This document shows, in pieces, positions 17,164 to 60,549 of a stretch of DNA of 64,000 nt. The stretch covers positions 660 to 64,659 of the forward strand of contig CAYHYM010000004.1 in NCBI GenBank assembly GCA_964360965.1, written 5' to 3'. Numbering within the stretch: the stretch's first letter is position 1; each line of letters begins with the position of its first letter. The position numbers and the translations under genes are program-made. Source of the stretch: an uncultured Gammaproteobacteria bacterium (lineage in GTDB: Bacteria; Patescibacteriota; Microgenomatia; Daviesbacterales; UBA10151). The notes beneath the pieces are model-generated. The model saw only the letters and a list, made by a program, of their open reading frames with translations, made no database searches and was not told the DNA's origin.

Positions 17164-18335
17164 GAAAGCTTTACCGGCATCAGGATATATTCCAAACCCT
17201 CAACTCCCACCGGCCGGATCAGGCAGGCTGACAAGGATCCGGAAAAATTAAGGGTTATTTTTGAAGAAGGCGCGTTTGATATAGCATCAATTAAAAATCT
17301 GGCATTAAAGGCAATGGTTAACCCGTCACCTGAAACATCAGCTTCAATTTCATTTTGCTGGCTGCCCAACTCTTTAGCAGAGGAGCTCAATACCATTTTA
17401 TCTTTTTCCAGTTTAAGCACAATAATATTGGCTTCGTTTTTGGCAAATACCGCCGCCAGTTTGACAGCCACCAGCATCTGCTCTTTGTTAATGATGGCAG
17501 TTGTTTGAATTTGGGTGGGGATAATCTTCTCCCAGGAGGGGAATTGTCCTTCTATCAACCTTGAGGAAATGATGGTTTCTCCGATATGAAAGATGATCTG
17601 ATTTTGGCTGGAGATGTCTTTAATAACCACCTCATCAACTCCCTCCTCTGAAATGATTTTTAAAACCTCTTCCAAAGTTTTTTTGGGTATCAGGCTTCTA
17701 AACCCTTTGACGGAGTTTATCCCGAGCGGCTTGTCCTGAGATTTGTCGAAGGACTTGTCCTGAGATTTGTCGAAGGAAGTCAAGGGACTCAGGGCAAGCT
17801 GTATTTGCCTGTGGGCCAGCCTAAAACCGTCAGTGGCCACAAAATCAAGCTTACCAGCGCTGCTTTGGGTTAACACTCCTGTTAAGGTAGGCCTTCCTTC
17901 ATCGGTGGCCGCAGCATATAAAATCTGGGCGCAGGAGTTGAGCATATTCTTGGGCAAACTTATGCCTTCACCCCCTCCCACAGGAATTACCGGAAATTCA
18001 GATGAGGATCCTGCTGAAATCGTGGCCTGGAATTTTCCCGCACTAACAATTAAGCTGTTTTGATTTGTGGAAATGTCGATTTTTGGCTCTTTTAAAGAGG
18101 TTACTACCTCGAGGATGGTTTTGGCAGGAACCACAATCTCACCAGGCTCTTGAATTTGCGCCGGGACAAATTTAATCACCCCAATTTCTAAATTGGTGGC
18201 AGATAACCTGACCTTAGACCCCTCTGTGGTAAAAAGGATATTTTCCAGTATAGGGAGTGTTGATCTGATACCTGTTGATCTGACAACTGTTTGTAAGGGT
18301 GGAAGTAAGTCTTGTTGTAATATAGTAAACTTCAT
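17160..18335 (-). CDS. dnaN: DNA polymerase III beta sliding clamp, carrying an in-frame repeat insertion
   Basis: N-terminal MKFTILQQDLL...ATNLE and C-terminal IAFNARFLIDAI motifs; length about 16 aa over typical because of a tandem 24-nt repeat. Confidence 0.85.
   Translation of the reverse strand: MKFTILQQDLLPPLQTVVRSTGIRSTLPILENILFTTEGSKVRLSATNLEIGVIKFVPAQIQEPGEIVVPAKTILEVVTSLKEPKIDISTNQNSLIVSAGKFQATISAGSSSEFPVIPVGGGEGISLPKNMLNSCAQILYAAATDEGRPTLTGVLTQSSAGKLDFVATDGFRLAHRQIQLALSPLTSFDKSQDKSFDKSQDKPLGINSVKGFRSLIPKKTLEEVLKIISEEGVDEVVIKDISSQNQIIFHIGETIISSRLIEGQFPSWEKIIPTQIQTTAIINKEQMLVAVKLAAVFAKNEANIIVLKLEKDKMVLSSSAKELGSQQNEIEADVSGDGLTIAFNARFLIDAISNAPSSKITLNFSGSLSACLIRPVGVEGLEYILMPVKLS
17730..17777. 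repeat. 2 x 24-nt perfect tandem repeat (cttgtcctgagatttgtcgaagga) inside dnaN, within a GC-rich patch about 17715..17800
   Basis: Direct reading; encodes SFDKSQDKSFDKSQDK in frame. Reverse complement carries the CCTTCGAC...CTCAGG core seen in other GC-rich elements. Confidence 0.85.
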
Positions 18336-18935: not shown

Positions 18936-20267
18936 TTATCCGGTGGATAAATTATTTTTGACTTCCCCCAGTATCCGCTGGACATCTTTGTCAGTGTCTG
19001 CCAGTTTTTTTATTTTATCCCTCCCATGCATGACAGTGGTATGGTCCCTGTTGCCTAAAATTTGTCCTATTTTTTCAACTGTTAAATTTAGGTGCTCGCT
19101 TAAGATAAACATAGTTATATGTCTTGGTAGAACCAACTCTTTTTGTCTTCTTGATCCGATCAAATCTTTTTGGCTTAAATTAAAGTAATCGCAAATAGTT
19201 GTTAAAACAAGTTTTGGGTCTACTTTTAGATTATTTTTGGGAGTTGTTTGTAAATGCAGGCTGATATTTTCGGTGGTTGGGGGTAAGTTCTGGGTCTTTA
19301 AAATCTGCAAAATCTGAACAAGCCGCCCCTCCAGCTCTCTGATGTTTGTATTATATGATGAGGCCAAAAGCTGTAGCGCTTCCTCTGATAAAACCGCTCC
19401 CTGCTGCAAACATTTGGCGCGCAGTATGGCAACTCTGGTGTCAAAATCAGGCGGCTGGATATCAATCATCAGCCCTCCTGCAAAGCGTGATTTTAGCCTG
19501 TCCTCAAGTTTTGCTATCTCATTGGGAGAGCGATCTGATGTTAAAATAACCTGGGAATTTTTTGAAATTAGCTCATTAAATGTGTGGAAAAACTCTTCCT
19601 GTGTTCCCTCTCGTCCTGAAAAAAACTGGATATCATCTATCAGTAAAACATCCAGGGAGCGGTATTTGGCACGCAGAGCACCCATCTTGTGTGTTTGTAT
19701 TGCTTCAACATAATCGTTCATAAATTTTTCAGATGGAGAGTAGATAATTTTGATGTGTGGTTTTTTGTCAAGGATGGCGTTGCCAATGGCAAGCATCAGG
19801 TGGGTTTTGCCCACCCCTGTGCCGCCATAAATAAAAAGAGGATTGTAAGATAAGCCTGGATTTTGAGCCACAGCCAAAGCTGCCGCATATGCCACATTAT
19901 TGGATAACCCTACCACAAAATTTTCTAAGGTGTATTTGGGATTAAGCGAGTGGGAGGCAACAGGCTCAATAATCTGGAAAAAATCCTCCTCTTTTTGGTC
20001 AGAAAATTTCTCCAACATCCTCACAGTTAAATCAATCTTAACCTTTTGGCCTAAAAGCTTTTCAAAGGTGCGCTCAATTAACTCCAGGTGCCTTTGGCTT
20101 AAAGTTTCTTTGATAAAGGCGTTATGGGCAGACAGAGTGGCAATTCCGTTGTTAAGTGATTGTAGGGCGGTTTTTTGGAAAAAGGTTTTAAAGTTGGCAG
20201 CAGAGACCTGCGGCTTGATGCCCTCTAAAAATTTATGCCAGAGCTTTAAGTTGTCCATGTTGTCCAT
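18936..20267 (-). CDS. dnaA: chromosomal replication initiator DnaA
   Basis: AAA+ Walker A GGTGVGKTHL, DnaA box-binding C-terminal helix-turn-helix region; canonical context next to dnaN and rpmH. Confidence 0.9.
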   Translation of the reverse strand: MDNMDNLKLWHKFLEGIKPQVSAANFKTFFQKTALQSLNNGIATLSAHNAFIKETLSQRHLELIERTFEKLLGQKVKIDLTVRMLEKFSDQKEEDFFQIIEPVASHSLNPKYTLENFVVGLSNNVAYAAALAVAQNPGLSYNPLFIYGGTGVGKTHLMLAIGNAILDKKPHIKIIYSPSEKFMNDYVEAIQTHKMGALRAKYRSLDVLLIDDIQFFSGREGTQEEFFHTFNELISKNSQVILTSDRSPNEIAKLEDRLKSRFAGGLMIDIQPPDFDTRVAILRAKCLQQGAVLSEEALQLLASSYNTNIRELEGRLVQILQILKTQNLPPTTENISLHLQTTPKNNLKVDPKLVLTTICDYFNLSQKDLIGSRRQKELVLPRHITMFILSEHLNLTVEKIGQILGNRDHTTVMHGRDKIKKLADTDKDVQRILGEVKNNLSTG

Positions 20268-20528: not shown

Positions 20529-20618
20529 GTCATTCCTGCGAATGCAGGAATCCATTTAACAAAAAACGTAAACCCATGCCGCTCAAGTTAATTGGATCCC
20601 GACATTCGTCGGGATGAC
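20529..20618. repeat. GC-rich MITE/RPE-like palindromic element (family 1), 90 nt, termini GTCATTCCTGCG...CGTCGGGATGAC
   Basis: Terminal hairpins attcctgcGAATgcaggaat and atcccgacATTCgtcgggat; reverse complement shares both termini plus the internal aattgga with the 108-nt element inside tsaD. Confidence 0.8.
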
Positions 20619-20624
20619 ACCGCT

Positions 20625-21032
20625 ATGTTACCTAAAACCAAAAGACTAAATCTCAAAACAGATTTTAAATGGGTGGCCTCTGGTAAAAAAATAGACACTA
20701 AGTTTGTCAGGCTTTTTGTTAAAATGGGAGATCCTTCGACCCATTCGATTAACACTCAGGGTCGTACTGAGTGGAATCGAAGTACGACTCGCTCCGCTCG
20801 CTCAGGACCTTTGGTTGGGATTGCTGTTTCAAGTAAGTCTTTTAAAAAAGCAACTCAGCGCAATAGAGCCAAAAGACTTACCTCTGTCGCACTTGAATCA
20901 CTTTATCCTCTTCTCCCTTCCCGCTTAAATATTGTGGCCCTTCCCAAAACTGCCATAATTGGTGTAAAATCACAAGATGTGTTGTTGGACTTGATGAAAT
21001 GTTATGAAAAAAATACTGATTGGTTTAATTAA
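20625..21032 (+). CDS. rnpA: RNase P protein component with an internal repeat-derived insertion
   Basis: LPKTKRL...FVRLFVK...RNRAKRLTS blocks typical of RnpA. The start was trimmed from 20592, since the first 11 codons lie in the family-1 repeat. About 27 aa inserted (GDPSTHSINTQGRTEWNRSTTRSARSGP). Confidence 0.7.
   Translation: MLPKTKRLNLKTDFKWVASGKKIDTKFVRLFVKMGDPSTHSINTQGRTEWNRSTTRSARSGPLVGIAVSSKSFKKATQRNRAKRLTSVALESLYPLLPSRLNIVALPKTAIIGVKSQDVLLDLMKCYEKNTDWFN
20742..20817. repeat. GC-rich element (family 2, TCCTTCGAC...CGCTCGCTCAGGA) inserted in-frame in rnpA
   Basis: Same ends as the 28-nt copy at 34106..34133; locally GC-rich compared with the flanks. Confidence 0.7.
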
Positions 21033-22563: not shown

Positions 22564-23784
22564 GTGCAAAAGTTATTAAAAATTTCCCAGCAAACTCTAT
22601 GGCAGATTATAGGCAAAGTGGTCTTTTCCCTGGCCACTTTTATCATCCTGGCTTTGATTGCCAGAAATTATGGTGAGGAAGGAACAGGTGTTTTTACTTT
22701 AGCGCTTACCTATTTGGCCATCTTTTATCTTCTGTCGGACTTTGGATTTAATGCCCATGTTCTTAGAAAAGTCAAAAGGCAAAACTCAAAAGTCAAAAAA
22801 GAATGGCAAAAACTTTTAGGAACAAGAATTTTATGGTCTGGAGTTTTAATTGTATTGGCCATAGGACTACTTCCCTTTTGGCCATTTACAACTCCTGAAT
22901 TTGCTCAGGCTGTGGTCATGGGAGCTTTGGCAATTATGGTGACAGGCATATTTGTGACATGTAATTTAATTTTTCAAAGCAGTTTGCGATATGATCTGTC
23001 AGTTTTAGCCTCAAGTTTAGGGACAGTTGTTGGTTTGGCAGTGTTTGGCTATCTAGTCTTATCAAAATATCCGGTACCAATTTTACTACTGGCTCATTTT
23101 TCAGGTTGGTTGGTGATAACAGTTGTAGCAGTTATATTACTCAGGAAGATGGTTCGATCGCTATCCCCTATCTTCGATATTCCATATACCATAGACTTAT
23201 TTAAAAAGTCCTGGCCCATTGCCGCAACACTTACTATAAATGTGGTTTATTTTAGGGCTGACTCTTTTTTAATTGCCTATTTCAAATCTGTTTCGGAGGC
23301 AGGAGTTTATAATGTTGCCTACTCTGTTTTTCAATCAGCCCTGGTCCTACCCACTTTTATTATGAATGTTTACTACCCGATGATGCTTAAATCTTTTAAG
23401 GGCATAAAATTTGTGGCCTTAGGATTGTTGGGTTTGGCCTCATTTGGAACAGTCATCACCCTACTCCTCTCTCCCTTTGTGGTGAATATTTTAACAGGAG
23501 GCGGATTTTTTGGATCCGCCCAATCTTTACAAATATTATCTTTGGGATTCCCTGCCTATTTTTTATCCGCTCTTTTGATGTGGGTTTTAGTGACTAAAAG
23601 TAAATATAAAACTTTGCTGATTATCTACTTGATCGGACTTTTGGTGAACTTGAGCTTAAACTTTATTTTTATCCCACAATACTCATTCATGGCTGCATCC
23701 TGGATTACGGTAATTTCCGAGTACTTAATTTTGGTGATGCAAACAGTGGTATTATTGTTTGAACGAAGTGAGGACACTTCTTAA
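22564..23784 (+). CDS. polysaccharide/oligosaccharide flippase (MOP/Wzx-like) family membrane protein
   Basis: About 12 predicted TM helices, N-terminal block typical of polysaccharide biosynthesis flippases. Confidence 0.5.
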   Translation: MQKLLKISQQTLWQIIGKVVFSLATFIILALIARNYGEEGTGVFTLALTYLAIFYLLSDFGFNAHVLRKVKRQNSKVKKEWQKLLGTRILWSGVLIVLAIGLLPFWPFTTPEFAQAVVMGALAIMVTGIFVTCNLIFQSSLRYDLSVLASSLGTVVGLAVFGYLVLSKYPVPILLLAHFSGWLVITVVAVILLRKMVRSLSPIFDIPYTIDLFKKSWPIAATLTINVVYFRADSFLIAYFKSVSEAGVYNVAYSVFQSALVLPTFIMNVYYPMMLKSFKGIKFVALGLLGLASFGTVITLLLSPFVVNILTGGGFFGSAQSLQILSLGFPAYFLSALLMWVLVTKSKYKTLLIIYLIGLLVNLSLNFIFIPQYSFMAASWITVISEYLILVMQTVVLLFERSEDTS

Positions 23785-23794
23785 AAATATTAAT

Positions 23795-24211
23795 ATGAAA
23801 CTGATTATATATACAGATGGGGCATCAAGAGGTAATCCAGGCCATGCCTCATATGGTTTTACCATCTCTGATGAAAAGGGAGAGTTGATTTATCAGGAAG
23901 GGAAATATATTGGTATAGCCACCAATAATGTGGCTGAATATATGGCTGTTTTAAAAGCGCTAAAGTATGTGGAAAAAGAATTTTCGAGCAAAACCCCTGT
24001 TCAGATAGAACTTTTCGCAGACTCAATGCTGGTTGTAAAACAGCTTTCAGGTCAATTCAAACTTAAAAATGAAAAGCTTAAAGTTTTTTTTGATCAAATC
24101 AAAATACTGGAACTTTCTTATGAAAGGGTTTTTTACAACTACATTCCCCGCCAGAGGAACAAACTGGCGGATAAATTGGCCAATCTGGCATTGGATCTTA
24201 AGCTACATTAA
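23795..24211 (+). CDS. rnhA: ribonuclease HI
   Basis: IYTDGASRGNPG...AEYMAVLKAL...LFADSMLVVKQ catalytic blocks; start taken at the internal MKLIIY Met. Confidence 0.7.
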   Translation: MKLIIYTDGASRGNPGHASYGFTISDEKGELIYQEGKYIGIATNNVAEYMAVLKALKYVEKEFSSKTPVQIELFADSMLVVKQLSGQFKLKNEKLKVFFDQIKILELSYERVFYNYIPRQRNKLADKLANLALDLKLH

Positions 24212-24297
24212 ATTACTATCAAAATCCTTCGACTTGTATACAGTTTGTCACCTTTTATCTCTCTTGAATTATCCAAAGTTAATGATACTATTTACCC

Positions 24298-28073: not shown

Positions 28074-30284
28074 TTAGGCACGAGGCCAATCAGAGATCAT
28101 TATGGATTCCCCTTTATGAGGTAGTTTTTGCCATAATTCTTCTGTAATAAAGGGCATGAATGGATGAAGCAGTTCTAGGCTGGTTTTGAAAACATACTCT
28201 AAAACAGGTTGAGCTTCAGCTCTTCTTTCTTTGGTAGATTCAATATATTTATCTGCAAACTCATGCCAGATAAAATCATATAAGATATTGGCAGCATCAT
28301 GGAATCTGAAAGCTTCCAAGGCTTTAGTAACCTTTTCAGTAGTTTCTGCTAATTTTTTAATAATTTCTTTATCATCAGCATTGTCATTGCGAGGAGTCTG
28401 CGACGAAGCAATCTGGATTGGAGATTGCCACGGTCGCCCAGGCGACCTCGCAATGACGTCTTTATTTGGATTAAACTCAATGATGAAGCGGCCAATATTC
28501 CAAAGCTTATTGGTAAAATTTCTCATAGCCTGGAGTTTAGGATGAGACAGGGATTGATCATGGCCCAAAGCTGTGCCGTAAATTAGAGCCATCCTGGCTG
28601 CATCTGCCCCGTATTGATCTGTAACTTCTAAGGGATTGACTACGTTATTTTTAGATTTACTCATTTTTTTGCCTAAAGGATCTAAAACCATGCCATGTAA
28701 AACAATATCTTGAAAAGGGATTTTGTTGGTAGCGTATAAACCCAGCATGATCATTCTGGCCACCCAGAAAAATAAAATTTCTCTACCTGTTTCTATAATT
28801 TGAGTTGGATAGAATTTTTCAAAATCTCCGCCAGCTGGCGGATTGGTGGTCTGCAAAGTAGCGAAGGTCCACTGACCTGAAGAAAACCAGGTATCAAAAG
28901 TGTCTTGATCCTGTTCCAGGGTGGAGTCATTACAAGAGCTGCATGTATCCGGCTTTTCACCTTCAGTAACAGTCCATTTTTTGCAAGAATCACAATACCA
29001 GGCAGGAATCTGTATTCCCCAGATAATTTGCCTGGAGATATTCCAATCCCTGATATTTTTAAGCCAGTTAAAGTAAATTTTGGCAAAATTTTTGGGATAA
29101 ATTTTTATTTTCCCAGATTTTACTGCCTCAATTGCTTTTTTTGCCAAAGGTTCAACTTTTATAAACCACTGCTCCAAAGGCAGGGGTTCAATTACATTTT
29201 TACACTTATAACAAAGGCCAATTCTGTGTTTGTATTCATAATCAACTTTTTCTAAAAGTTCTTTTTGCTCTAATTCTTCTACAACTGCCTGTTTTGCCGC
29301 TTTCACACTCATTCCGGAAAACTTTCCCGCACTAGCATTTAACCTTCCATCAAAGCCAATCACCTGAACAATAGGTAGGTTATGGATTTGAGCTCTTGCA
29401 AAATCATCCATGTCATGGGCTGGGGTAAGTTTGATAATTCCTGTTCCAAAAGTAGGATCAACAGTGTCATCCGCTATAATTTTCATCTCTTTGTCTGTTA
29501 AAGGATTTTTTACTTTTCTACCTGTATACCGGGAATTTTTCTTATCTTTTGGGTTAATAGCCAGATAGTCATCAATCATGATTGGCTCTGGTCTGGTGGT
29601 AGCAATAACTAAATATTCTGGCTCGCCAGCTTTGCTGTTAATTAGTGGGTAGCGGACATAATATAGCGGATCTTTTCTTTCTTCATAAACTACTTCTAAA
29701 TCAGAAAAGGAGGTGCCATTTGTAGTGCAGTAATTAACCAATCTTTGGGTTCTGTAAACCAATCCATCATCAAACAGTTTTTTAAAGGTTTTGTAGACAA
29801 CTTTGACAATATCAGGATCAAGAGTAAATTTTTGTCTGGACCAATCAAGAGAAAACCCCAGTCTTTTGAGTTGCTGTTCCATATTTCCTCTATTCTCTGC
29901 CACAAAATCCCAAATCATCTGATAAAGGGTGGTTCTGTCGTAATCAAATCTGGATTTTCCTTGATTCTCAAGATGTTTTTCAAAAACAAATTGTGTTTCA
30001 AAACCGGCATGGTCTGCTCCGGGCAGCCACAAAGTAGCTTCACCTTTCATCCTATGATATCGGATGAGAATATCTTCAATGGTATACATGGCATGGCCAA
30101 AATGTAGGGGGGCATTGGCATTGGGTGGAGGTAAGATGATGGTAAAAGGTTTGCCATCAGGATTTATTTCAGGCTTAAAATAGCCTGCCTTTTCCCAAAA
30201 TTTGTACCATTTTTGTTCAACCTTAGTTTGATTATAAACTTTGTCCATCAGCATAAGTATAGGGTGCTTGTAGTAGTTGGTCAA
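28074..30284 (-). CDS. valS: valyl-tRNA synthetase (reduced form) with in-frame repeat insertion in the C-terminal domain
   Basis: HIGH region PPPNANAPLHFGHA, KMSKS motif, ValRS-like blocks; the 75-nt GC-rich element is read through in frame. Confidence 0.8.
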   Translation of the reverse strand: MTNYYKHPILMLMDKVYNQTKVEQKWYKFWEKAGYFKPEINPDGKPFTIILPPPNANAPLHFGHAMYTIEDILIRYHRMKGEATLWLPGADHAGFETQFVFEKHLENQGKSRFDYDRTTLYQMIWDFVAENRGNMEQQLKRLGFSLDWSRQKFTLDPDIVKVVYKTFKKLFDDGLVYRTQRLVNYCTTNGTSFSDLEVVYEERKDPLYYVRYPLINSKAGEPEYLVIATTRPEPIMIDDYLAINPKDKKNSRYTGRKVKNPLTDKEMKIIADDTVDPTFGTGIIKLTPAHDMDDFARAQIHNLPIVQVIGFDGRLNASAGKFSGMSVKAAKQAVVEELEQKELLEKVDYEYKHRIGLCYKCKNVIEPLPLEQWFIKVEPLAKKAIEAVKSGKIKIYPKNFAKIYFNWLKNIRDWNISRQIIWGIQIPAWYCDSCKKWTVTEGEKPDTCSSCNDSTLEQDQDTFDTWFSSGQWTFATLQTTNPPAGGDFEKFYPTQIIETGREILFFWVARMIMLGLYATNKIPFQDIVLHGMVLDPLGKKMSKSKNNVVNPLEVTDQYGADAARMALIYGTALGHDQSLSHPKLQAMRNFTNKLWNIGRFIIEFNPNKDVIARSPGRPWQSPIQIASSQTPRNDNADDKEIIKKLAETTEKVTKALEAFRFHDAANILYDFIWHEFADKYIESTKERRAEAQPVLEYVFKTSLELLHPFMPFITEELWQKLPHKGESIMISDWPRA
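28383..28457. repeat. 75-nt GC-rich element with perfect 12-bp terminal inverted repeats GTCATTGCGAGG/CCTCGCAATGAC inside valS
   Basis: Direct reading; internal hairpin gtcgccCAGgcgac; length is a multiple of 3 and it is translated in frame. Confidence 0.8.
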
Positions 30285-30736: not shown

Positions 30737-31879
30737 TCAAGCGAGGGATAAATTGGGATCTGCCTGAAGTTTTAAAGGATTTGGGATGGGTTTTTGGAAA
30801 AATCCAGCTGCTGCAATCATGGCTCCGTTATCTGTACACAAGTCTGGTGGAGGAATATATAATTTAATATTTGAATTCAAACTGTCCACTGTAACCTGTA
30901 ACCTGTCAACTAACTTTTTATTTGCAGCCACACCGCCGGCAATCATGATATTTTTCACAGGATGAACTTTTAATGCCTGGATTACTTTTTCTACTAAAGA
31001 TTCAACTATGGTATTTTCAATAGCAGCAGCCAGATCTTGCTTCACCTCCGAGGAGTCAAAGCCCACCTCGGAGGTGTGTACCAGGTTTGCTACTGCAGTT
31101 TTTAAGCCTGAATAAGAGAAATCAAAATCTTTTGATCCCTTCATAGGAATGGGAAGTTTAAATCTATTTGGATTACCTTTTTGAGCCAGTTTGGAAATTT
31201 CCGGTCCTCCTGGATAGGAAAGTCCTAATAATCTGGCACATTTATCAAAGCACTCACCTGCCGCATCATCCCTGGTGCCACCTAAATAATCATACTTGCC
31301 ATGACTGGTAAAAAGCACTAAATCCGTATGCCCACCTGAAACCAGTAAGCCTAAACAAGGAAATACTGGTACTTCACCTCCGGGATGTTCTGTTTGAATC
31401 CAGTTGGCATAAAAGTGGCCAAGTAAATGGTTAACTGGTATTAATGGTTTATTCCAAACTAAGGCTAGAGTTTTGGCTGTTTCTACTCCCACCAAAAGGG
31501 ATCCAATCAGTCCTGGACCGTATGTGACAGCTATGGCATCAATTTTCTTTATTCTGTCATCCCGACGAATGTCGGGATCCAATTCCGAACGTGACTTTGT
31601 TAATTGGATTCTCCTCGAGTCTGAGCGACCTCGGAGTCGAAGACCTGCATTCGCAGGAATGACATCGGGAAAGATTTGACTTAGTGCTTCCTCAATTACC
31701 GGAATAATGCTTTTGATCTGTTCCCTGGCAGCTTGTTCCGGAATAATTCCTCCATATTTGGCTTGTAAATTAGCTGATGATGCTACGACATTGGATAATA
31801 TTTTTACTCCATCTTTATCCTTTATCAATATAGCAACTGCTGTCTCATCGCAACTAGTTTCAATACCGAGTATTATCAT
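30737..31879 (-). CDS. tsaD: tRNA N6-adenosine threonylcarbamoyltransferase TsaD (Kae1/Gcp) with a 36-aa in-frame repeat insertion
   Basis: MIILGIETSCDET...HLLGH...GGVAANK blocks; length about 380 aa against a typical 340. Confidence 0.85.
   Translation of the reverse strand: MIILGIETSCDETAVAILIKDKDGVKILSNVVASSANLQAKYGGIIPEQAAREQIKSIIPVIEEALSQIFPDVIPANAGLRLRGRSDSRRIQLTKSRSELDPDIRRDDRIKKIDAIAVTYGPGLIGSLLVGVETAKTLALVWNKPLIPVNHLLGHFYANWIQTEHPGGEVPVFPCLGLLVSGGHTDLVLFTSHGKYDYLGGTRDDAAGECFDKCARLLGLSYPGGPEISKLAQKGNPNRFKLPIPMKGSKDFDFSYSGLKTAVANLVHTSEVGFDSSEVKQDLAAAIENTIVESLVEKVIQALKVHPVKNIMIAGGVAANKKLVDRLQVTVDSLNSNIKLYIPPPDLCTDNGAMIAAAGFFQKPIPNPLKLQADPNLSLA
31556..31663. repeat. 108-nt family-1 GC-rich MITE/RPE-like element inside tsaD (termini GTCATCCCGACG...CGCAGGAATGAC)
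   Basis: First 29 nt and last 23 nt are identical to the reverse complement of the rpmH-rnpA copy; multiple of 3; encodes ...LDPDIRRDD... in frame. Confidence 0.85.
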
Positions 31880-33362: not shown

Positions 33363-34238
33363 GTGATTACTAAATCAAAACAGGAATATATTAAAAATGC
33401 TATTTATCTTTCCTATACTTCTTTAAATGATTTTTTGAAGTGTCCCGGGAGCTATTATTTAAAAAACATCTACAGAGATCCCAAAACCGGCTTTAGGATG
33501 CAGATTGCCTCACCTTATCTTTCTTTAGGTTCAACAGTCCATGATGCTATAAAGTGGCATATAGAAATGGCAGGCCCGCTTCGACTCGCGTCGAGCGAGG
33601 CGAGACAGGTAACATATGAACAATTGGAGGGAAAATTTAGAAATCTATGGCTAAAATATACCGGTAAAAGAGGGGGTTTCTCCACCAAAGAAGATGAAGC
33701 AAGTTTTGGTAAGCGCGGCCTGTTAATGTTGGAGAATTTTTTTAGAAATGCCAAAAACTTGGAAGATAAACATCACAGTATAGAATTTCCTAAATACCCA
33801 TTATTGGATAATGTAATTTTAATGGGGAATTTTGACTTTATTGGGGAAAAAGAGGATCAGACCTTACATGTTGTGGATTTTAAAACCGGAGCAAATGATG
33901 AAAAAGATCCAATTCAGCTTTATATTTATGCCATTTTGGCAGAGGCTAATTTGGAAAAATCAGTTTCTTCAGCTTCATTTTGGTATTTGGACAGGGAAGA
34001 TAAACCGCGTGATATAGTTTTAGATCCGCTGGAACCAAAACTGGAATGGTTAAAAGAAAAAGCCACAGAGTTAAAAAAGGCAATTGGGGAGGGAATGTGG
34101 GTTTGTCCTTCGACTCGCTCCGCTCGCTCAGGATTATGTAGAGATTGTAGAGACTATCATGCCATTTTGGATGGAAAAGGTGAATTTCAATTTACTGATT
34201 ATAGATACAAGAAAGATGTTTATTACCTTCCCAAATAG
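33363..34238 (+). CDS. Cas4/RecB-like PD-(D/E)xK nuclease with 4-Cys cluster (orphan, no CRISPR nearby)
   Basis: N-terminal Cys (CPGSYY), DF...VDFKTG...QLYIY nuclease motifs, C-terminal C...C..C; two short GC-rich in-frame insertions. Confidence 0.55.
   Translation: MITKSKQEYIKNAIYLSYTSLNDFLKCPGSYYLKNIYRDPKTGFRMQIASPYLSLGSTVHDAIKWHIEMAGPLRLASSEARQVTYEQLEGKFRNLWLKYTGKRGGFSTKEDEASFGKRGLLMLENFFRNAKNLEDKHHSIEFPKYPLLDNVILMGNFDFIGEKEDQTLHVVDFKTGANDEKDPIQLYIYAILAEANLEKSVSSASFWYLDREDKPRDIVLDPLEPKLEWLKEKATELKKAIGEGMWVCPSTRSARSGLCRDCRDYHAILDGKGEFQFTDYRYKKDVYYLPK
33570..33612. repeat. short GC-rich element inside the Cas4-like gene
   Basis: ggcaggcccgcttcgactcgcgtcgagcgaggcgagacagg, about 70% GC in an AT-rich gene. 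Confidence 0.55.
34106..34133. repeat. 28-nt family-2 GC-rich element (TCCTTCGACTCGCTCCGCTCGCTCAGGA) inside the Cas4-like gene
   Basis: Identical ends to the rnpA insertion. Confidence 0.7.
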
Positions 34239-36344: not shown

Positions 36345-36540
36345 GCCCAACTTAACTTCAGCTAAAGTGTTGTGTTTATGAAATCCATTAGAGGGGATCG
36401 ACTCAAATAGCTTAATCGACGATATCCGTATTGGATTAAAAGGCATGGCCATAAGTTTTTCCATTTCCACTTCTAATTTTTGATCTACTTTTAAATGGTT
36501 GTTGAGCTTGGAAATATTGAAATCTTCACTTTTGATAAAG
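36345..36540. repeat. partial duplicate of the thpR 3' end (about 196 nt, same orientation as thpR)
   Basis: Near-identical to 41945..42125, including a 75-nt perfect stretch aaaaggcatggccataagtttttccatttccacttctaatttttgatctacttttaaatggttgttgagcttgg. Confidence 0.85.
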
Positions 36541-40052: not shown

Positions 40053-40354
40053 AAAGTGATATTAAGACAACCGGAGTAATGGCGCTTGACTGGGCAGCGG
40101 CTCAGGGAGATTTGCACGAGATTCAAAGGTTAGTCGCATCCGGCGCAGATTTGAACGAAGGTGATTATGATGGGAGAACCGCAATACATCTGGCAGCCTC
40201 GGAAGGACAGGAAGAAATTGTCAGGTATTTAATTGCGAAAGGTGTAAATATTAATCCTAGGGATCGTTGGGGTGGGACACCTTTAGCTGATGCCATGAGA
40301 GGTAACCACACCAAAGTTATAGAGCTTTTGAAAAAACATAATGCACAGAAATAA
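40049..40354 (+). CDS. stand-alone ankyrin-repeat protein, tandem duplicate of the glutaminase ANK module
   Basis: About 70% identical to the last 95 aa of the upstream ORF; ATGA start/stop overlap. Confidence 0.65.
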   Translation: MKSDIKTTGVMALDWAAAQGDLHEIQRLVASGADLNEGDYDGRTAIHLAASEGQEEIVRYLIAKGVNINPRDRWGGTPLADAMRGNHTKVIELLKKHNAQK

Positions 40355-41479: not shown

Positions 41480-41530
41480 CCCAAGTTTAACTTCAGCCAG
41501 AATGTTATGTTTATGGAAGCCATTTTTGTA
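41480..41530. repeat. second short copy of the thpR 3'-terminal sequence
   Basis: tttaacttcagccagaatgttatgtttatggaagcc against the thpR end tttacttcagctaaagtattatgtttgtggaaacc. Confidence 0.55.
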
Positions 41531-41534
41531 GAAA

Positions 41535-41654
41535 TCAAAGTAATTCTTTAAGTTCATCTATGGAAATTTCCACTGACTTTAAAATACTCATTAGAGTTTT
41601 TCTTTTGAGAGCTTTAATGACCTCCTTTGGCTTAACAACTGGAATTTTGGGCAT
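41535..41654 (-). pseudogene. hicA: HicA toxin remnant with internal deletion
   Basis: Translates to MPKIPVVKPKEVIKALKRKTLMSILKSVEISIDELKELL: the N- and C-terminal segments of the intact 74-aa HicA at 63179..63403 are fused and the central GSH region is missing. Confidence 0.55.
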
Positions 41655-41918: not shown

Positions 41919-41936
41919 GGAGTTATTATAGCATTT

Positions 41937-42889: not shown

Positions 42890-43020
42890 GGGAGGGAATT
42901 GGCCCGTTGATCCATCCAGCAACTGATTCGAGTTTTCGAGAATCCTTAAGCGACTAGCGAAGGACCTCTAGAAACCGACCGCGGTGCTACACCCAAGCCC
43001 GCAAGGGAGGATTAGGTCTT
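42890..43020. repeat. GC-rich structured element (possible ncRNA or leader) upstream of a terminator
   Basis: About 60% GC block in AT-rich DNA; contains a tccttcgctagtcgcttaagga family-2-like palindrome on the reverse strand. Confidence 0.4.
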
Positions 43021-46520: not shown

Positions 46521-46615
46521 GAGCCCTTCGACAAGGCTTCGACGGTGAGTCTTTCGACCCTGAGCTCAAGACCGAAGGGCTCAGCCGAACCGCTCAGGGT
46601 AAACTCTGTCGAACC
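46521..46615. repeat. 95-nt GC-rich palindromic element (family 2 core) immediately upstream of the transporter gene start
   Basis: 10-bp terminal-ish inverted repeat gagcccttcg...cgaagggctc enclosing ccttcgac/ctcagg cores; ends at the ATG of the next gene. Confidence 0.75.
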
Positions 46616-50576: not shown

Positions 50577-50927
50577 TTGCATATGCCAAAAGTAAAAAAA
50601 GCAAAAACTGCAAAATTAAAAATTAACCCTTCGACTTCGCTCAGGGTGAAGCCCTTAATGGGTTATGTGTTAGTGCAACCTGGTGAGGCTGAAACTACTA
50701 CTTCCTCAGGTATTATCCTTCCAGAATCAGCTCAAGAAAAACCGGCTCAAGGAATGGTTGTAGCTTGTGGTGAGGATATGGTTTTGGAGGGTGGCAAAGT
50801 TATAAAGTGTCCGGTAAAAGTAGGAGATAAAGTAGTTTATAAAAAATGGGGCGGGGATGAGATAAAAATAGATGGGGTAGAATATAAATTAGTCAAATTC
50901 GATGATCTAATGGCAATATTGGAGTAA
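50577..50927 (+). CDS. groES: co-chaperonin GroES with N-terminal extension containing a repeat element
   Basis: RVKPLMGYVLVQP...TSSGIILPESAQEKPAQGMVVACGE GroES blocks; the 5' end contains cccttcgacttcgctcagggtgaagccc (50627..50654). Confidence 0.75.
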   Translation: MHMPKVKKAKTAKLKINPSTSLRVKPLMGYVLVQPGEAETTTSSGIILPESAQEKPAQGMVVACGEDMVLEGGKVIKCPVKVGDKVVYKKWGGDEIKIDGVEYKLVKFDDLMAILE

Positions 50928-51319: not shown

Positions 51320-52963
51320 ATGGCAAAGATGTTGAAATTTAACCAAGAAGCTCGTGAGAAATTATTAAAGGGTATTAATATCCTGACAGAGGCTGTGGCT
51401 ACCACTTTGGGGCCTAAGGGCAGAAATGTGGCTTTGGATAAGAAGTGGGGAGCACCAGCTGTTGTTCATGATGGAGTAACTGTGGCCAAAGAGATAGATT
51501 TGGAAGACCCGTTTGAAAACATGGGGGCACAACTTATTAAAGAAGCAGCCTCAAAGACCAATGATGTGGCAGGAGACGGAACAACAACAGCCACCATTTT
51601 GGCCCAAGCAATGGTTTCAGAGGGCTTAAAAAATATTCAGGCCGGAGCCAATCCCATGATTTTAAAACATGGCATGGAAAAGGCTGTGACAGCTTTGGTT
51701 GAAGAGCTCAAAAAGATGAGCAAAAAAGTAACTACTCAGGAAGAAATTGCTCAAGTGGCCACCATTGCCGCGGCAGATGTACAGATTGGCAATCTAATTG
51801 CCGAAGCCTTGCAAAAAGTGGGAAAAGACGGGGTGGTTACAGTTGAGGAAGGTAAAACTATGGAGATGGCTGTTGATTATAAAAAAGGGATGGAGTTTGA
51901 TAAAGGTTTTGTTTCACCTTATTTTATAACTGATACGGATAAAATGGAGGCAAGTAATGATGGGGAACCATATATTCTAATTACTGATAAGAAAATTTCT
52001 TCTGCCGCTGATCTTGTTCCATTTTTAGAAAAATTCGTACAGTACTCTAAAGATTTAGTAATAATTGCAGACGAAGTTGAAGGAGAAGCGCTGGCTTTAT
52101 TAGTAGTAAATAAACTTCGCGGTACCTTCAATATTTTTGCAGTTAAGGCTCCAGGCTTTGGTGATCGCAGGAAAGAGATGTTGGAAGATATAGCAATTTT
52201 GACAGGTGGTACTGTTATTTCTGAAGACACAGGGAAAAAATTTGAATCAGTTGAAAAAGAGGATTTAGGAAGAGCTGGAAGGGTAACATCAGATAAAGAC
52301 AACACTTTAATTGTTGATGGTAAGGGCGTCAAAGCCAGGATTGAAGGAAGAATTGCTCAAATAAGAAGGGAGCTGGAAACTTCAGATTCAGAATTTGACA
52401 AGGAAAAGCTACAAGAAAGATTGGCCAAATTAACAGGTGGAGTGGCTGTAGTTAATGTTGGAGCTGCCACAGAAATAGAACTGAAAGAGAAAAAAGAAAG
52501 GGTAATTGATGCAGTGGCAGCCACCAAAGCAGCAATTGAGGAAGGAATTGTTCCTGGTGGAGAGGTAGCTTTAATTAGAGCAGCTAAAGTTTTGGACAGT
52601 GTGATTGCTGATGGGGACTCTTCGACAGGTTCAGGGCAAGAGGAAAAAGTTGGTGTAGAGATTGTCAAAAAAGCCCTGGAACAACCATTTAGGCAGTTGG
52701 TTAAAAATGCGGGAATGGATGAGGGTGTTGCCTTAGCAAAAGTTTTGGATTCGCAAGGCAATATGGGTATTGATGCTTTAGATGGTAACCTGAAAGATTT
52801 AGTTAAGGCAGGAATTATTGACCCGGTCAAAGTGACCAGATCAGCTCTTCAGAATGCAGTATCCGTAGCTATTATGGTAATGACGACCCACGTTCTAATT
52901 TCTGACAAGCCTGAACCCCCAGCACCTCCCCCAATGCCCCCGGGCGGAAGGCCTGAGTACTAA
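51320..52963 (+). CDS. groL: chaperonin GroEL
   Basis: [12 protein letters not shown]..., [10 protein letters not shown], and a C-terminal GGM-like tail; unmistakable. Confidence 0.93.
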
Positions 52964-59647: not shown

Positions 59648-60549
59648 GCCTTAATTATGCCAATTTTGCTGACGTTTTGCCACATCTGATCCACAATTTG
59701 ATCAATTGGTTGATTTTTTATCCGGGCAATTTCTTTAACCACTTCTAAAACATAGGCAGGTTCGTTTCTCTGTCCCCGTTTTGATTGTGGCGGTAAAAAA
59801 GGAGAATCAGTTTCGATGGTAATTTTTTCCAAAGGTAGGATCCTGGCGGCTTCTTGTAGATATTCATTTTGGGGATAGGTGATATTGCCGGCAAAGGAAA
59901 CCAGGAAATTAGTTTGCAGTATGCGGTTGGTAGTTGGTAGTAAGCCACTATAACAGTGGTAAATACCAAAGTAGTCTTTTGTCATCTTCAAGACTTCATC
60001 CCAGGCCGAAGGAGACGAAGTCTCCGCAGGTGGTGAGCCACTCGGCACTGAGCTCACGGCCGAAGTGCCTGTCGAACCGCTACTTTTTGATCTGTCATCC
60101 CGGCAGTGAACAATTAAAGGAAGGTTAAGTTTTTTTGCTAAATCAATTTGAGCTTGGAAAAGCTGCCTTTGTAGGTTTTTAACAATAAACACCTCCGAGG
60201 TGGGCTTTGACTCCCCGGAGGTGGAGAAAGCATAATCCAGGCCGCACTCTCCAACAGCTACTACTTTATCTACATTATCTAAATATATTTTTTCTAAACT
60301 TTTTATATCTTTTTGGATAGATATGTCTAGGTTATCTTTATACTTAACTGCCTCATGAGGATGAATGCCAATCGAAGAATAAAATTTTAATTTGTTAGAA
60401 TTTAACTCTGCTGCGATTTTGGAAGTTTCAACATCTACACCAATATTAATGATAATGCCTACATCAGCATCTAAGGAATGTCTAATCACTTCGTCAAAGT
60501 CTTGTTTAAAACTATCCCAATATAAATGTGCATGAGTATCAATTAACAT
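59644..60549 (-). CDS. tatD: TatD-family metal-dependent DNase with an about 33-aa in-frame low-complexity insertion
   Basis: MLIDTHAHL, VGECGLDY and IVHCRD blocks; the insertion DRSKSSGSTGTSAVSSVPSGSPPAETSSPSAWD is encoded by a GC-rich element. Confidence 0.8.
   Translation of the reverse strand: MLIDTHAHLYWDSFKQDFDEVIRHSLDADVGIIINIGVDVETSKIAAELNSNKLKFYSSIGIHPHEAVKYKDNLDISIQKDIKSLEKIYLDNVDKVVAVGECGLDYAFSTSGESKPTSEVFIVKNLQRQLFQAQIDLAKKLNLPLIVHCRDDRSKSSGSTGTSAVSSVPSGSPPAETSSPSAWDEVLKMTKDYFGIYHCYSGLLPTTNRILQTNFLVSFAGNITYPQNEYLQEAARILPLEKITIETDSPFLPPQSKRGQRNEPAYVLEVVKEIARIKNQPIDQIVDQMWQNVSKIGIIKA
59995..60112. repeat. GC-rich hairpin-rich element inside tatD (family-1-like gtcatccc ends plus a gtcgaaccgct core)
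   Basis: Hairpins ggagacGAAgtctcc and ggtgagc...gctcac; about 62% GC. Confidence 0.7.

What the first reader, a model, noticed from the sequence alone, without database searches (positions are those of the whole stretch)
20742..20817. Second GC-rich element family (CCTTCGAC…CTCAGG) inserted in rnpA
This element adds about 27 aa (GDPSTHSINTQGRTEWNRSTTRSARSGP) between conserved RnpA blocks. Its ends (TCCTTCGAC … TCGCTCCGCTCGCTCAGGA) are identical to a 28-nt version in the Cas4-like gene (34106..34133). The same CCTTCGAC/CTCAGG cores recur at 17730..17777 (dnaN), 46521..46615, 50627..50654 (groES 5' end) and 42890..43020.
Basis: seen in the sequence. Interest (0 to 1): 0.75.

Follow-up and report, generated by a model that had tools for sequence, protein, structure and literature searches.

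The report
Hairpin repeat inserted inside essential genes
A small GC-rich, hairpin-forming repeat has copied itself in-frame into at least six housekeeping genes (rnpA, dnaN, groES, tsaD and others) of an uncultured groundwater Daviesbacteria (CPR) bacterium. It resembles the palindromic elements of Rickettsia, but its short core is also found in many other bacterial phyla.

Summary
The rnpA element spans 20732-20808, not 20742-20817. The listed site 42890-43020 is a SAM-riboswitch-like leader, not a family member.

- **Enrichment.** CCTTCGAC occurs 7 times against 0.55 expected. CCTTCGAC-N(0-30)-CTCAGG occurs 5 times against 0.
- **The rnpA copy.** It is a full-length (~70 nt) member of a rod-like hairpin family, found with the same architecture in 22 other metagenome contigs. 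Some of those copies lie in-frame in ychF and a DNA ligase.
- **Short forms.** The 18-33 nt forms in groES, the PD-(D/E)XK nuclease, tsaD and dnaN keep both ends and lack the inner 48-nt hairpin.
- **Related genomes.** Orthologous sites are empty, carry a minimal core, or carry expanded versions. Elements are more conserved than the host coding sequence.
- **Nesting.** Units repeatedly sit inside the loops of older units.
- **Effect on RnpA.** The insert lies in the beta1-beta2 turn and is predicted disordered.
- **Spread.** The 19-nt core occurs in at least 120 species genomes across many phyla, with covarying stems.

Best reading: selfish REP/RPE-like hairpin DNA that targets hairpin loops and is filtered by selection to in-frame permissive loops. 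The enzyme that moves it is unknown. This is a new variant of a known kind.

The parts
20732..20808 (+). Full-length element in rnpA. It consists of the left end TCCTTCGAC, the inner 48-nt hairpin module, and the right end TCGCTCCGCTCGCTCAGGAC. The right end carries an 8-nt CGCTCCGC expansion relative to the family consensus TTCGCTCAGG.
   Evidence: The covariance model scores it at 90.6 bits, E=3e-26, over 20729-20811. The same sequence was assembled independently in two replicate samples.
20741..20788 (+). Inner 48-nt module CCATTCGATTAACACTCAGGGTCGTACTGAGTGGAATCGAAGTACGAC. It forms a 7+7 bp hairpin and is bounded by CGAC on both sides.
   Evidence: Fold: -15 kcal/mol, z=-2.0. Its 21-mer occurs in 22 metagenome contigs, always inside the same CCTTCGAC...CTCAGG frame.
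34106..34133 (+). Short form TCCTTCGACTCGCTCCGCTCGCTCAGGA, in-frame (PSTRSARSG) between two Cys residues of the C-terminal Cys cluster of a PD-(D/E)XK (Cas4/AddB-like) nuclease.
   Evidence: Relatives carry CCTTCGACAAGCTCAGGA (L200) or CCTTCGACTCGCTCTGCTCGCTCAGGA (L199) at the same site, and most have no element.
33576..33605 (+). Variant unit CCGCTTCGACTCGCGTCGAGCGAGGCGAGA (PLRLASSEAR) in the same nuclease gene.
   Evidence: A 10-aa insert absent from 118 of 120 homologues. Empty sites in L199 and L200. Hairpin -10.8 kcal/mol, z=-1.7.
17703..17794 (-). Composite in dnaN. The outer unit is in reverse orientation (CCCTGAG...GTCAAAGGG). Nested inside it are two tandem forward 24-mers (TCCTTCGACAAATCTCAGGACAAG, 17729-17776) and a CCGCTCGGGATAAACTCC tail.
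   Evidence: A 21-aa insert relative to L005 and L007 DnaN. Those relatives carry only the reverse 29-nt unit CCCTGAGCGAGCGCGAGCGAGTCGAAGGG. The Pfam central domain is split. The covariance model scores it at 14.4 bits.
31611..31643 (-). Unit TCTTCGACTCCGAGGTCGCTCAGACTCGAGGAG in tsaD. It is nested inside a copy of a different GC-rich family (GTCATTCCTGCGAATGCAGG^AATCC) and is part of a ~37-aa composite insert.
   Evidence: The covariance model scores it at 16.9 bits. The Pfam TsaD domain is split into two stretches. The linker is 66 aa against a modal 29 aa in 150 representatives.
46521..46615 (+). Intergenic composite array with three left ends, a diverged inner hairpin and the right end CGCTCAGGGTAAACTCTGTCGAACC. 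It ends at the ATG of a solute-binding-protein gene.
   Evidence: Fold -18.2 kcal/mol, z=-1.7. The covariance model scores 46547-46603 at 15.3 bits.
50625..50648 (+). Short form AACCCTTCGACTTCGCTCAGGGTG in groES (NPSTSLRV, after residue 14). It equals the full-length consensus with the inner module removed.
   Evidence: The covariance model scores it at 18.7 bits with 48 positions deleted. It is absent from most of 120 GroES homologues. The site is empty in L197, and L198 carries the identical 24 nt.
52617..52637 (+). Probable decayed core ACTCTTCGACAGGTTCAGGGC in groEL (DSSTGSG). Tentative.
   Evidence: It has 2 mismatches to CTTCGACAAGCTCAGG. No homologue comparison was run.
59994..60083 (-). 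Composite GC-rich insert of ~28 aa in tatD, containing GGTTCGACAGGCACTTCGGCCGTGAGCTCAGTGCC. Tentative member.
   Evidence: The Pfam TatD domain covers 293 residues for 250 profile positions.

Best explanation
This is selfish, non-autonomous hairpin DNA of the REP / Rickettsia-palindromic-element kind.

**The unit.** The basic unit is a short stem of variable, covarying sequence that closes a conserved loop (TTCGAC - few nt - CTCAGG).

**How it spreads (inferred).** New units, including a 48-nt hairpin module specific to CPR-like genomes, are copied into the loops of existing units and into other single-stranded or hairpin-prone DNA. This builds nested, modular, rod-like palindromes of up to ~70-90 nt. 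Loop centres also grow by slippage of GCTC and TTCGAC.

**Why copies survive in genes (inferred).** A copy persists in a coding region only if its length is a multiple of three, its frame has no stop codon, and it falls in a surface loop or at the N-terminus. It is then translated as a disordered, hydrophilic peptide that the host protein tolerates.

**What is shown:**
- repetition and enrichment;
- presence, absence and size polymorphism at orthologous sites;
- the same full-length element in unrelated genes of other genomes;
- nesting of units inside units;
- stem covariation;
- nucleotide conservation above that of the host gene;
- location of the RnpA insert in a loop.

**What is inferred:**
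- the copying mechanism (a trans-acting hairpin- or ssDNA-specific enzyme, or template switching);
- that the inserts are translated;
- that they are neutral for the host.
For: **Enrichment and family membership**
- Enrichment over shuffles.
- The six best covariance-model hits in the window are exactly the proposed members.

**Orthologous sites**
- rnpA shows five states at one site: empty GAT AAT CAG ATG CCC; CCTTCGACAAGCTCAGGA; two point variants; a 42-nt expansion; and the 77-nt window copy.
- groES has an empty site in one relative and the identical 24 nt in another.
- The nuclease carries AAG-centre and TCGCTCYGCTCG-centre variants at one site.

**Full-length copies elsewhere**
- 22 contigs from several groundwater and JGI samples, about 16 distinct loci, all with the same outer frame.
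- Copies lie in-frame in ychF and a DNA ligase, in reverse frame in a glycosyltransferase ORF, and at the gltX 5' end.

**Nesting**
- The inner module is always inside a core.
- L309 carries a full-length copy inside another core.
- dnaN has forward units inside a reverse unit.
- tsaD has this family's unit inside a unit of another family.

**Structure**
- The outer helix covaries: 0 of 500 shuffles reach the covariation score, and 91% of cells are paired against 18-44% when the partners are slid.
- RNAalifold predicts a rod-like structure.
- Around the cross-phylum 15-mer, the two flanking positions are 77% and 71% complementary, against 34% and 31% expected.

**Conservation above the host coding sequence**
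- groES: 24/24 against 78.7% (P=0.003).
- Nuclease: 26/27 against 75% (P=0.004).
- rnpA: 19/20 against 71% (P=0.01).

**Tolerance in RnpA**
- The AF2 model has pLDDT above 90 for the fold and below 50 for insert residues 42-57, which lie between strands 28-34 and 63-66.
- The site maps to the beta1-beta2 turn of T. maritima RnpA.

**Precedent:** intragenic REPs and RPEs, often in replication and repair genes, are described in PMC3733652.
Against: - No transposase or other candidate enzyme was found in the window or recurrently next to cores.
- There are no target-site duplications or long terminal inverted repeats.
- Short forms fold only weakly (z -0.1 to +1.0).
- No strain closer than about 60-80% protein identity was available, so no recent insertion event was caught.
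- Nucleotide conservation above the host gene could also mean a host function at the DNA or RNA level.
- An identical 19-mer in genomes of 32-71% GC across many phyla is not typical of REPs, which are usually lineage-specific.
- Many copies sit right at start codons or in 5' UTRs, which could point to a regulatory role.
Confidence: 0.6

Rival explanations
1. The hairpins are host cis-acting nucleic-acid signals, and their presence inside genes is secondary. Possible roles are mRNA-stabilising or translation-modulating stem-loops, or binding sites for a conserved DNA- or RNA-binding protein. Under this reading they are kept because the conserved loop is functional.
For: - The loop is conserved and the stems covary.
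- Nucleotide conservation exceeds that of the host coding sequence.
- Many copies lie immediately upstream of or overlapping start codons: 46521-46615, groES, and L311, L312, L313, L317, L320, L322.
- The core is conserved across phyla.
Against: - Copies occur in both orientations relative to host genes.
- They sit in the middle of unrelated genes and in intergenic DNA of every kind.
- They nest and expand irregularly.
- Presence is patchy among close orthologues, so no gene depends on them.
- No Rfam family matches.
Confidence: 0.17
2. There is no dedicated enzyme. Copies spread and homogenise by replication template switching or microhomology-mediated gene conversion between hairpin-stalled sites. 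Local slippage explains the size series.
For: - Centres differ by duplications of GCTC and TTCGAC.
- The 48-nt module is bounded by CGAC direct repeats.
- The groES insert starts with AACCCTT next to the flank AAGCCCTT.
- The rnpA and nuclease copies of one genome share the unusual TCGCTCCGCTCG centre.
- No transposase was found.
Against: Homology arms of 8-10 nt are very short for conversion between distant loci. The same 48-nt module, nearly identical, is found at about 16 unrelated loci in different genomes, which calls for an efficient copying process. Spread across phyla needs more than local slippage.
Confidence: 0.17
3. The inserts are adaptive at the protein level. They would be recruited as functional loops, for example for new interactions in RnpA, the beta clamp or GroES.
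For: Intragenic forward copies always use the hydrophilic frame PSTHSINTQGRTEWNRSTT (5 of 5).
Against: - The same DNA occurs in intergenic regions and in reverse frames.
- The peptides are predicted disordered.
- The inserts are absent from most orthologues.
- Conservation holds at synonymous positions as well.
Confidence: 0.04
4. The element is an assembly or chimera artefact, or a chance low-complexity match.
For: The source is a metagenome-assembled contig of low coverage (about 4-5x in the replicate assemblies).
Against: - The rnpA locus is identical in two independent replicate assemblies and in the MAG contig.
- Elements keep reading frames open in several essential genes.
- Related copies occur in many independent data sets.
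- Enrichment statistics rule out chance.
Confidence: 0.01

Closest known systems
Rickettsia palindromic elements (RPE-1 to RPE-8; Ogata et al. 2000, 2002, cited from my own knowledge; summarised in PMC3733652)
   Same: - Dispersed hairpin-forming repeats in a small, AT-rich, reduced genome.
- Many copies inserted in-frame in functional housekeeping genes, with no known transposase.
- Tolerated because they fall in surface loops.
- Several unrelated families coexist in one genome.
   Different: - No sequence relationship was tested or is apparent.
- The units here are much smaller (18-33 nt minimal, ~70 nt full length, against ~100-150 nt for RPE-1).
- They are modular and nest in each other's loops.
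- The core is shared with many other phyla rather than one genus.
- The host is a free-living or episymbiotic CPR bacterium, not an intracellular alphaproteobacterium.
REP / REPIN elements and intragenic REPs (GTAG- and CGTC-tagged families; Di Nocera et al. 2013, PMC3733652)
   Same: - 20-40 nt GC-rich stem-loops, as singles and inverted doublets. 24% of cross-phylum cores have an inverted partner 40-70 nt away.
- Occasional in-frame copies inside replication and repair genes.
- CGTC REPs also lack a dedicated transposase.
   Different: - There is no GTAG or CGTC terminal tag.
- The conserved part is an 11-13 nt loop with a short variable stem, whereas most REPs have a long conserved stem and a short loop.
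- No RAYT gene was seen nearby.
- The same core is found across phyla.
IS200/IS605-type single-strand transposition (Y1 HUH transposases)
   Same: - Hairpin substrates with no terminal inverted repeats and no target duplication.
- Insertion next to a fixed short sequence. The inner module always follows TTCGAC and itself ends in ACGAC.
- A preference for single-stranded or hairpin DNA would explain insertion into loops.
   Different: - No TnpA or RAYT gene was found.
- Orientation follows the host gene rather than the replichore in the two informative cases, tsaD and tatD. That is too few to count.
- This is a mechanistic analogy only.
Mobile GC clusters of yeast mitochondria and double-hairpin elements of chytrid mitochondria (own knowledge)
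   Same: GC-rich palindromic mini-elements in AT-rich genomes that also land in-frame in protein genes and in each other.
   Different: Organellar and eukaryotic, with unrelated sequences. Nothing was tested here.

Membership tests
RPE-like intragenic palindromic repeats | Dispersed multi-copy repeat in the genome | tested here: met
   8-10 copies in 64 kb with strong enrichment. 22 further contigs carry the full-length form.
RPE-like intragenic palindromic repeats | Palindromic, able to form a stable hairpin | tested here: met
   For the full-length form: z=-2.0, covarying outer helix and an RNAalifold rod. Short forms fold only weakly.
RPE-like intragenic palindromic repeats | Inserted in-frame, without stop codons, in otherwise intact conserved genes | tested here: met
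   rnpA, dnaN, groES, the PD-(D/E)XK nuclease (two sites), tsaD and tatD in the window. ychF and a DNA ligase elsewhere.
RPE-like intragenic palindromic repeats | Insertion at surface-exposed, structurally permissive positions | tested here: met
   RnpA: the beta1-beta2 turn, with insert pLDDT below 50 and fold pLDDT above 90. Structures of the other hosts were not modelled.
RPE-like intragenic palindromic repeats | Sequence homology to RPE-1 to RPE-8 consensus sequences | not tested
RPE-like intragenic palindromic repeats | Insert retained in mRNA and protein | not testable with these tools
   Needs transcriptome or proteome data. Open frames and lengths in multiples of three are only indirect support.
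REP / REPIN (RAYT-associated) | Conserved GTAG or CGTC tetranucleotide tag at one end of the stem-loop | tested here: not met
   The ends are (N)CCTTCGAC and CTCAGG(R). No GTAG or CGTC tag is conserved.
REP / REPIN (RAYT-associated) | Inverted doublets (REPINs) | tested here: inconclusive
   47 of 198 cross-phylum cores have an inverted partner within 250 nt. The window copies are singles, tandems or nested units.
REP / REPIN (RAYT-associated) | Cognate RAYT (Y1 transposase) gene flanked by the repeats | tested here: inconclusive
   Clustering of ORFs within 2.5 kb of cores in about 190 loci gave only GTA or prophage genes and SDRs. Whole genomes were not searched.
MITE | Terminal inverted repeats of ~15-30 bp and a target-site duplication | tested here: not met
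   Only 4-7 bp of complementary ends. No duplication at the groES, nuclease or rnpA junctions.
IS200/IS605-type ssDNA transposition substrate | Insertion 3' of a fixed short target, no TIR or TSD, strand bias relative to replication, TnpA present | tested here: inconclusive
   The fixed left context TTCGAC holds in 22 of 22 copies, with no TSD. No TnpA was found. There are too few copies to test orientation bias.
Known structured RNA (Rfam) | Match to any Rfam 15 covariance model | tested here: not met
   No hit on the elements at gathering score or at E<=0.5 in the window. On four cross-phylum loci there were only sub-threshold miRNA or sRNA look-alikes.

The most novel reading that the evidence does not exclude
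The conserved-loop hairpin (stem + TTCGAC-N-CTCAGG) may be the recognition and target site of an unidentified enzyme specific for hairpins or single-stranded DNA and distributed across phyla. The short cores seen from Sphingomonadales to Chloroflexota, the CPR full-length elements and the in-gene copies would then form one pan-bacterial mobile superfamily. That superfamily would grow by inserting into its own loops. In CPR genomes it would routinely remodel the loops of essential proteins.
Probability: 0.25. Interest if true: 0.8.

Novelty: new variant of a known kind. Interest (0 to 1): 0.62.

Why it matters
- **A second case in reduced genomes.** If confirmed, this is a second, independent and much denser example of selfish palindromic DNA living inside essential genes of a reduced genome. 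It sits in the Candidate Phyla Radiation, where such elements do not appear to have been described: none was found in the searched literature.
- **CPR protein inserts.** It offers an explanation for some of the unexplained short inserts and N- or C-terminal tails in CPR proteins, and a caution for annotation and phylogenomics of these lineages.
- **How palindromic repeats grow.** The nested series (empty, then 18 nt, then 28-42 nt, then 77 nt at one codon position) is an unusually clear record of growth from a minimal hairpin.
- **Search for the machinery.** A core with a conserved loop and covarying stem, shared by genomes of 32-71% GC in many phyla, gives a concrete handle for phylogenetic-profile searches for what moves REP-like DNA, which remains unresolved for many such families.

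Tried and rejected
1. **Rfam.** Searches at gathering score and at permissive E-values on the window and on four cross-phylum loci found no family for the element. The only relevant result was that 42872-43017 is SAM-riboswitch-like.
2. **PDB sequence search with RnpA.** It gave 'significant' hits to designed beta-propellers (Cake, Bagel). Each repeat scores only ~6.5 bits (i-Evalue ~80) and the total is a sum over 8 repeats, so I rejected these as an artefact. A profile search then found genuine RnpA structures.
3. **Search for an associated gene.** All-against-all clustering of ORFs within 2.5 kb of 19-mer cores in about 190 loci recovered only an alphaproteobacterial GTA or prophage capsid/portal cluster and generic SDRs. 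No transposase appeared.
4. **Literature string searches** for the DNA core and its typical translations (FDKLRA, PELVEG, LSLSKH) gave only chance hits.
5. **NJ tree of RnpA with the loop masked.** Core-bearing proteins are scattered (at least 6 changes for 8 taxa). The tree rests on 106 columns and is too weak to prove independent insertions.
6. **Hammerhead or other ribozyme and tRNA T-arm resemblance.** I considered these by eye and dropped them: the CUGANGA/GAAA core is absent and there is no Rfam hit.
7. **DNA-uptake-sequence idea.** I dropped it because density is low (about 1 per 7 kb) and the core is shared across phyla.
8. **The inner 21-mer in IMG/VR** gave 0 hits, so there is no evidence for phage carriage of the full-length form.
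Full report
**Source and setting.** The window is a ~39% GC stretch around the replication-origin gene cluster (dnaN, dnaA, rpmH, rnpA, yidD, yidC, jag) of a Candidatus Daviesbacteria-like (Microgenomates, CPR) bacterium. RnpA, GroES and nuclease homologues carry that name. The contig comes from Hainich groundwater (well H51, 0.1 um fraction). The rnpA locus, element included, was assembled identically in two replicate samples and in a 64,795-bp MAG contig. The element is therefore not an assembly accident.

**Observation check.**
- The element in rnpA is real, but it spans 20732-20808 rather than 20742-20817.
- CCTTCGAC occurs 7 times in the window against 0.55 expected. CCTTCGAC-N(0-30)-CTCAGG occurs 5 times against 0.00, and no shuffle reaches either count.
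- A looser two-ended pattern gives 29 overlapping matches against 5.6 in Markov simulations.
- The rnpA copy equals the 28-nt copy at 34106-34133 plus a 48-nt internal hairpin bounded by CGAC on both sides.
- 42890-43020 is not a member. It matches the SAM-I riboswitch model at 42872-43017 (40.3 bits, E=1e-5).
- Further members are 33576-33605 (second site in the nuclease), 31611-31643 (tsaD), 59994-60083 (tatD, tentative) and 52617-52637 (groEL, tentative).

**It is an insertion.**
- **RnpA.** In 95 of 120 homologues the loop between ...LF.K.GD and PR[IV]GIAV is 3 residues long. Here it is 25 residues.
- **rnpA DNA in relatives**:
  - empty: GAT AAT CAG ATG CCC (L007);
  - minimal core: GAT CCTTCGACAAGCTCAGGA CCA (L004);
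  - point variants (L005, L009);
  - a 42-nt version with internal duplications of TTCGACA and AAGCTCA (L003).
- **groES.** A relative (L197) has the empty site ...AAC ATT|AAA CCT.... The window and L198 share an identical 24-nt insert.
- **PD-(D/E)XK nuclease.** One site carries CCTTCGACAAGCTCAGGA in L200, CCTTCGACTCGCTCTGCTCGCTCAGGA in L199 and the window version here, while most homologues have none. The second site is unique to the window (118 of 120 homologues lack it).
- **dnaN.** The window has 21 extra residues. The relatives' 'empty' site ...GCC CTGAGCGAGCGCGAGCGAGTCGAAGGG... is itself a reverse-orientation unit. The window keeps its two ends and has two tandem forward 24-mers plus a tail inside it.
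- **tsaD.** The unit lies inside a unit of a different GC-rich family (GTCATTCCTGCGAATGCAGG^AATCC). It is part of a 37-aa composite in a linker that is 29 aa in most of 150 representatives.

**The full-length family.**
- A metagenome scan with the central 21-mer of the inner hairpin found 22 contigs, about 16 distinct loci, with GC 34-45%. They come from several Hainich wells and several JGI samples.
- Every copy has the same architecture: CCTTCGAC-CCATTCGATTAA-CACTCAG-GGTCGTA-CTGAGTG-GAATCGAAG-TACGAC-T(T/A/G)CGCTCAGG.
- The rnpA insert is thus a complete copy with an 8-nt expansion on its right side.
- Removing the 48 nt between the CGAC repeats from the consensus gives CCTTCGACTTCGCTCAGG, which is exactly the groES form.
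- A covariance model built from 14 copies scores rnpA at 90.6 bits. It then ranks groES, tsaD, 46547-46603, dnaN and the nuclease copy as the next five hits in the window. Each of these aligns to both model ends with the inner 42-48 positions deleted.
- Elsewhere the full-length element lies in-frame in ychF (same frame: PSTHSVNTQGRTEWNRSTT) and in an ATP-dependent DNA ligase. It lies in the one open reverse frame of a glycosyltransferase ORF and at the 5' end of gltX.
- Several copies sit right before start codons, and the rest are intergenic.
- In L309 a full-length copy sits inside another short core (TCCTTCGAC|CCTTCGAC...CTCAGG|GCTCAGGA).

**Direction of change at rnpA.** The close relatives carry the AAG-centre core. 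That form cannot be derived by deleting the inner module from the window copy. The parsimonious order is therefore core first, then acquisition of the inner module (inference).

**Structure.**
- The full-length copy folds into a rod: -15 kcal/mol as DNA, z=-2.0.
- On 17 copies the closing helix shows compensatory changes (CG 8, UA 6, UG 2 at one pair; CG, GC and AU at the next). 0 of 500 shuffles reach the covariation score, and 91% of cells are paired against 18-44% when the partners are slid.
- RNAalifold returns the same rod.
- Tandem secondary units in L311, L312, L317, L320 and L322 change GTCGTAC/GTACGAC to GTCATAT/ATATGAC or GTCATAG/CTATGAC. This supports an alternative hairpin that is itself a reverse-orientation core-like unit (stem + TGAG-N-TCGAA loop).
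- Short forms alone fold weakly.

**The core beyond CPR.**
- The 19-mer CCTTCGACAAGCTCAGGAC, the rnpA core of L004, occurs in 67 IMG/VR contigs of 32-71% GC.
These include isolates of Sphingomonas, Altererythrobacter, Novosphingobium, Jiella and Thalassotalea. They also include MAGs of Chloroflexota, Bacteroidota, Acidobacteriota, Planctomycetota, Burkholderiales, Actinomycetota, Nitrospirales, Verrucomicrobiota and others.
- By my estimate, about 4 matches would be expected by chance in 596 Gb for a 19-mer.
- The TTCG-centre 18-mer occurs in 101 IMG/VR contigs.
- The flank consensus is gT[core]GAaCGG, and 24% of cores have an inverted partner 40-70 nt away.
- Around the 15-mer CTTCGACAAGCTCAG, the two flanking positions are complementary in 77% and 71% of 109 instances, against 34% and 31% expected, with CG, GC, AT and TA pairs all present.
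- The unit is therefore a short covarying stem closing a conserved 11-13 nt loop.
- No Rfam family matches, and no paper in the searched library contains the motif.
- The inner 48-nt module was not found in IMG/VR and appears confined to CPR-like contigs.

**Conservation.** The elements are better conserved than the genes that carry them:

| Comparison | Element | Rest of CDS | P |
|---|---|---|---|
| groES, window vs L198 | 24/24 | 78.7% | 0.003 |
| Nuclease, window vs L199 | 26/27 | 75.1% | 0.004 |
| rnpA, L004 vs L005 | 19/20 | 71.0% | 0.01 |

This argues against old, neutrally decaying insertions. It is consistent with recent or repeated insertion, with homogenisation among copies, or with selection on the nucleotide sequence. 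Within the window, the rnpA and nuclease copies share the unusual TCGCTCCGCTCG centre, which is consistent with within-genome copying.

**Consequences for the proteins.**
- A profile of the RnpA family aligns to T. maritima RnpA (1NZ0, 3Q1Q) and places the site in the turn between the first two strands (KNGMDYS|RLGIVV).
- An AlphaFold2 model has mean pLDDT 84. The canonical fold scores above 90, and residues 42-57 of the insert score below 50, between strands 28-34 and 63-66.
- The full-length consensus is open in two forward frames and one reverse frame. Intragenic forward copies use only the hydrophilic one (5 of 5), and reverse copies use the single open frame.
- This pattern is what a filter for tolerated, translated inserts would produce. 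Translation itself is not shown.

**Mechanism.** I commit to selfish hairpin DNA of the REP/RPE kind that is copied preferentially into hairpin loops or single-stranded DNA (confidence 0.6).
- The evidence for loop targeting is the nesting, which was seen five times: the inner module in the core (22 of 22), L309, dnaN, rnpA compared with its orthologues, and tsaD across families.
- There are no target duplications.
- The left context is fixed (TTCGAC^), and the module itself ends in ACGAC.
- An HUH/Y1-like single-strand transposase would fit these features, but none was found. Replication template switching at stalled hairpins is the main mechanistic alternative.
- A host cis-regulatory role remains possible. 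It is suggested by the conserved loop, the positions next to start codons and the conservation above the CDS. It is weakened by the use of both orientations, patchy presence among orthologues and irregular nesting.

**Comparison with known families.** The closest known kinds are Rickettsia palindromic elements and intragenic REPs, which are also reported in replication and repair genes (PMC3733652). This family differs from them in four ways:
- it lacks the GTAG or CGTC tag;
- it has a conserved loop and a short variable stem;
- it is built modularly by nesting;
- its core is shared across phyla.

It fails the MITE criteria, having no long terminal inverted repeats and no target duplication. 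I therefore file it as a new variant of a known kind.

**Caveats.**
- Only 64 kb of the genome was available.
- The relatives are 60-80% identical at the protein level, so no recent insertion was caught.
- The RnpA tree is too weak to count independent gains.
- IMG/VR 'viral' contigs include GTA-like or prophage host DNA.
- A literature search that finds nothing does not prove the family is undescribed.

Noticed in passing
window 42872-43017 (+): SAM-I riboswitch-like leader (RF00162, 40.3 bits against a gathering score of 44.4, E=1e-5). It lies upstream of ORFs 43081-43440 and 43602-44747, which have no Pfam match.
   Followed up: partly
window 20529-20553 (+) and 31644-31663/31606-31610 (-): A different GC-rich palindromic family, GTCATTCCTGCGAATGCAGGAATCC (translates as VIPANAGI). 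One copy lies between rpmH and rnpA. One copy lies in tsaD, where it is split by the CTTCGAC...CTCAG unit. RnpA homologues in other genomes end in tails such as VIPANAGI, VILSEAKNI and VIPSVSEESLN, which look like translations of such elements.
   Followed up: partly
window 20590-20619 (+) and 31555-31584 (-): A perfect 30-nt inverted repeat, AATTGGATCCCGACATTCGTCGGGATGACA. One copy lies just upstream of the rnpA ATG, inside the longer TTG-started ORF. The other lies in-frame in tsaD (ELDPDIRRDDR).
   Followed up: no
window 31036-31080 and 60186-60230: A 45-nt palindromic repeat (CACCTCCGAGG..CAAAGCCCACCTCGGAGGTG), 91% complementary between the two copies. Both lie in-frame inside tsaD and tatD, the same two genes that carry the CTTCGAC-family inserts. 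A similar string, gggagtgggctttgactctcccgg, follows the element in L327.
   Followed up: no
window 28415-28461: Another GC-rich palindrome, GGAGATTGCCACGGTCGCCCAGGCGACCTCGCAATGAC, inside the ORF 28074-30284 (-). It is of the widespread 'GTCATTGCGAGG...' type.
   Followed up: no
RnpA homologues P0021, P0035, P0066, P0067, P0068; nuclease homologue P0245: The same RnpA loop, and the same Cys-Cys loop of the nuclease, carry a different mini-insert in other genomes: N(H)PPAGG or SPPAGG. This looks like a palindromic CCNCCNGCNGGNGG unit. These loops therefore appear to be recurrent landing sites for several element families.
   Followed up: no
TsaD representatives P0361-P0510: The linker between IIPV...AL and IDAIAVT.GPG ranges from 22 to 94 residues (mode 29) across 150 cluster representatives. 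Some inserts resemble translations of repeat elements, for example P0396 LSLRGAKRREIPSS.
   Followed up: partly
window 39748-40339; 41483-42118, 36348-36523 and 63166-63683: A 290-nt tandem duplication (76% identity), and several 63-265 nt repeats at 83-86% identity shared between distant loci (families D1-D4, D7 and D11). These are probably paralogous genes or gene fragments.
   Followed up: no
window 1-64000: The cumulative GC skew reaches its minimum near 13.2 kb, about 6 kb to the left of dnaA (18936-20267). The origin may therefore not lie in the dnaA-rpmH spacer.
   Followed up: no
window 23759-24233: An RNase H / RVT_3-domain gene (23759-24211) is followed 15 nt later by an isolated CCTTCGAC with no right end (24226-24233). 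This is a chance match or a remnant.
   Followed up: no
L311, L312, L317, L320, L322, L328: Full-length elements are followed by AT-richer tandem units (CTCAGGGTCATATTGAGTGAAATCGAAATATGA). Their last stem contains the ATG of the downstream gene, so these arrays overlap translation starts.
   Followed up: partly
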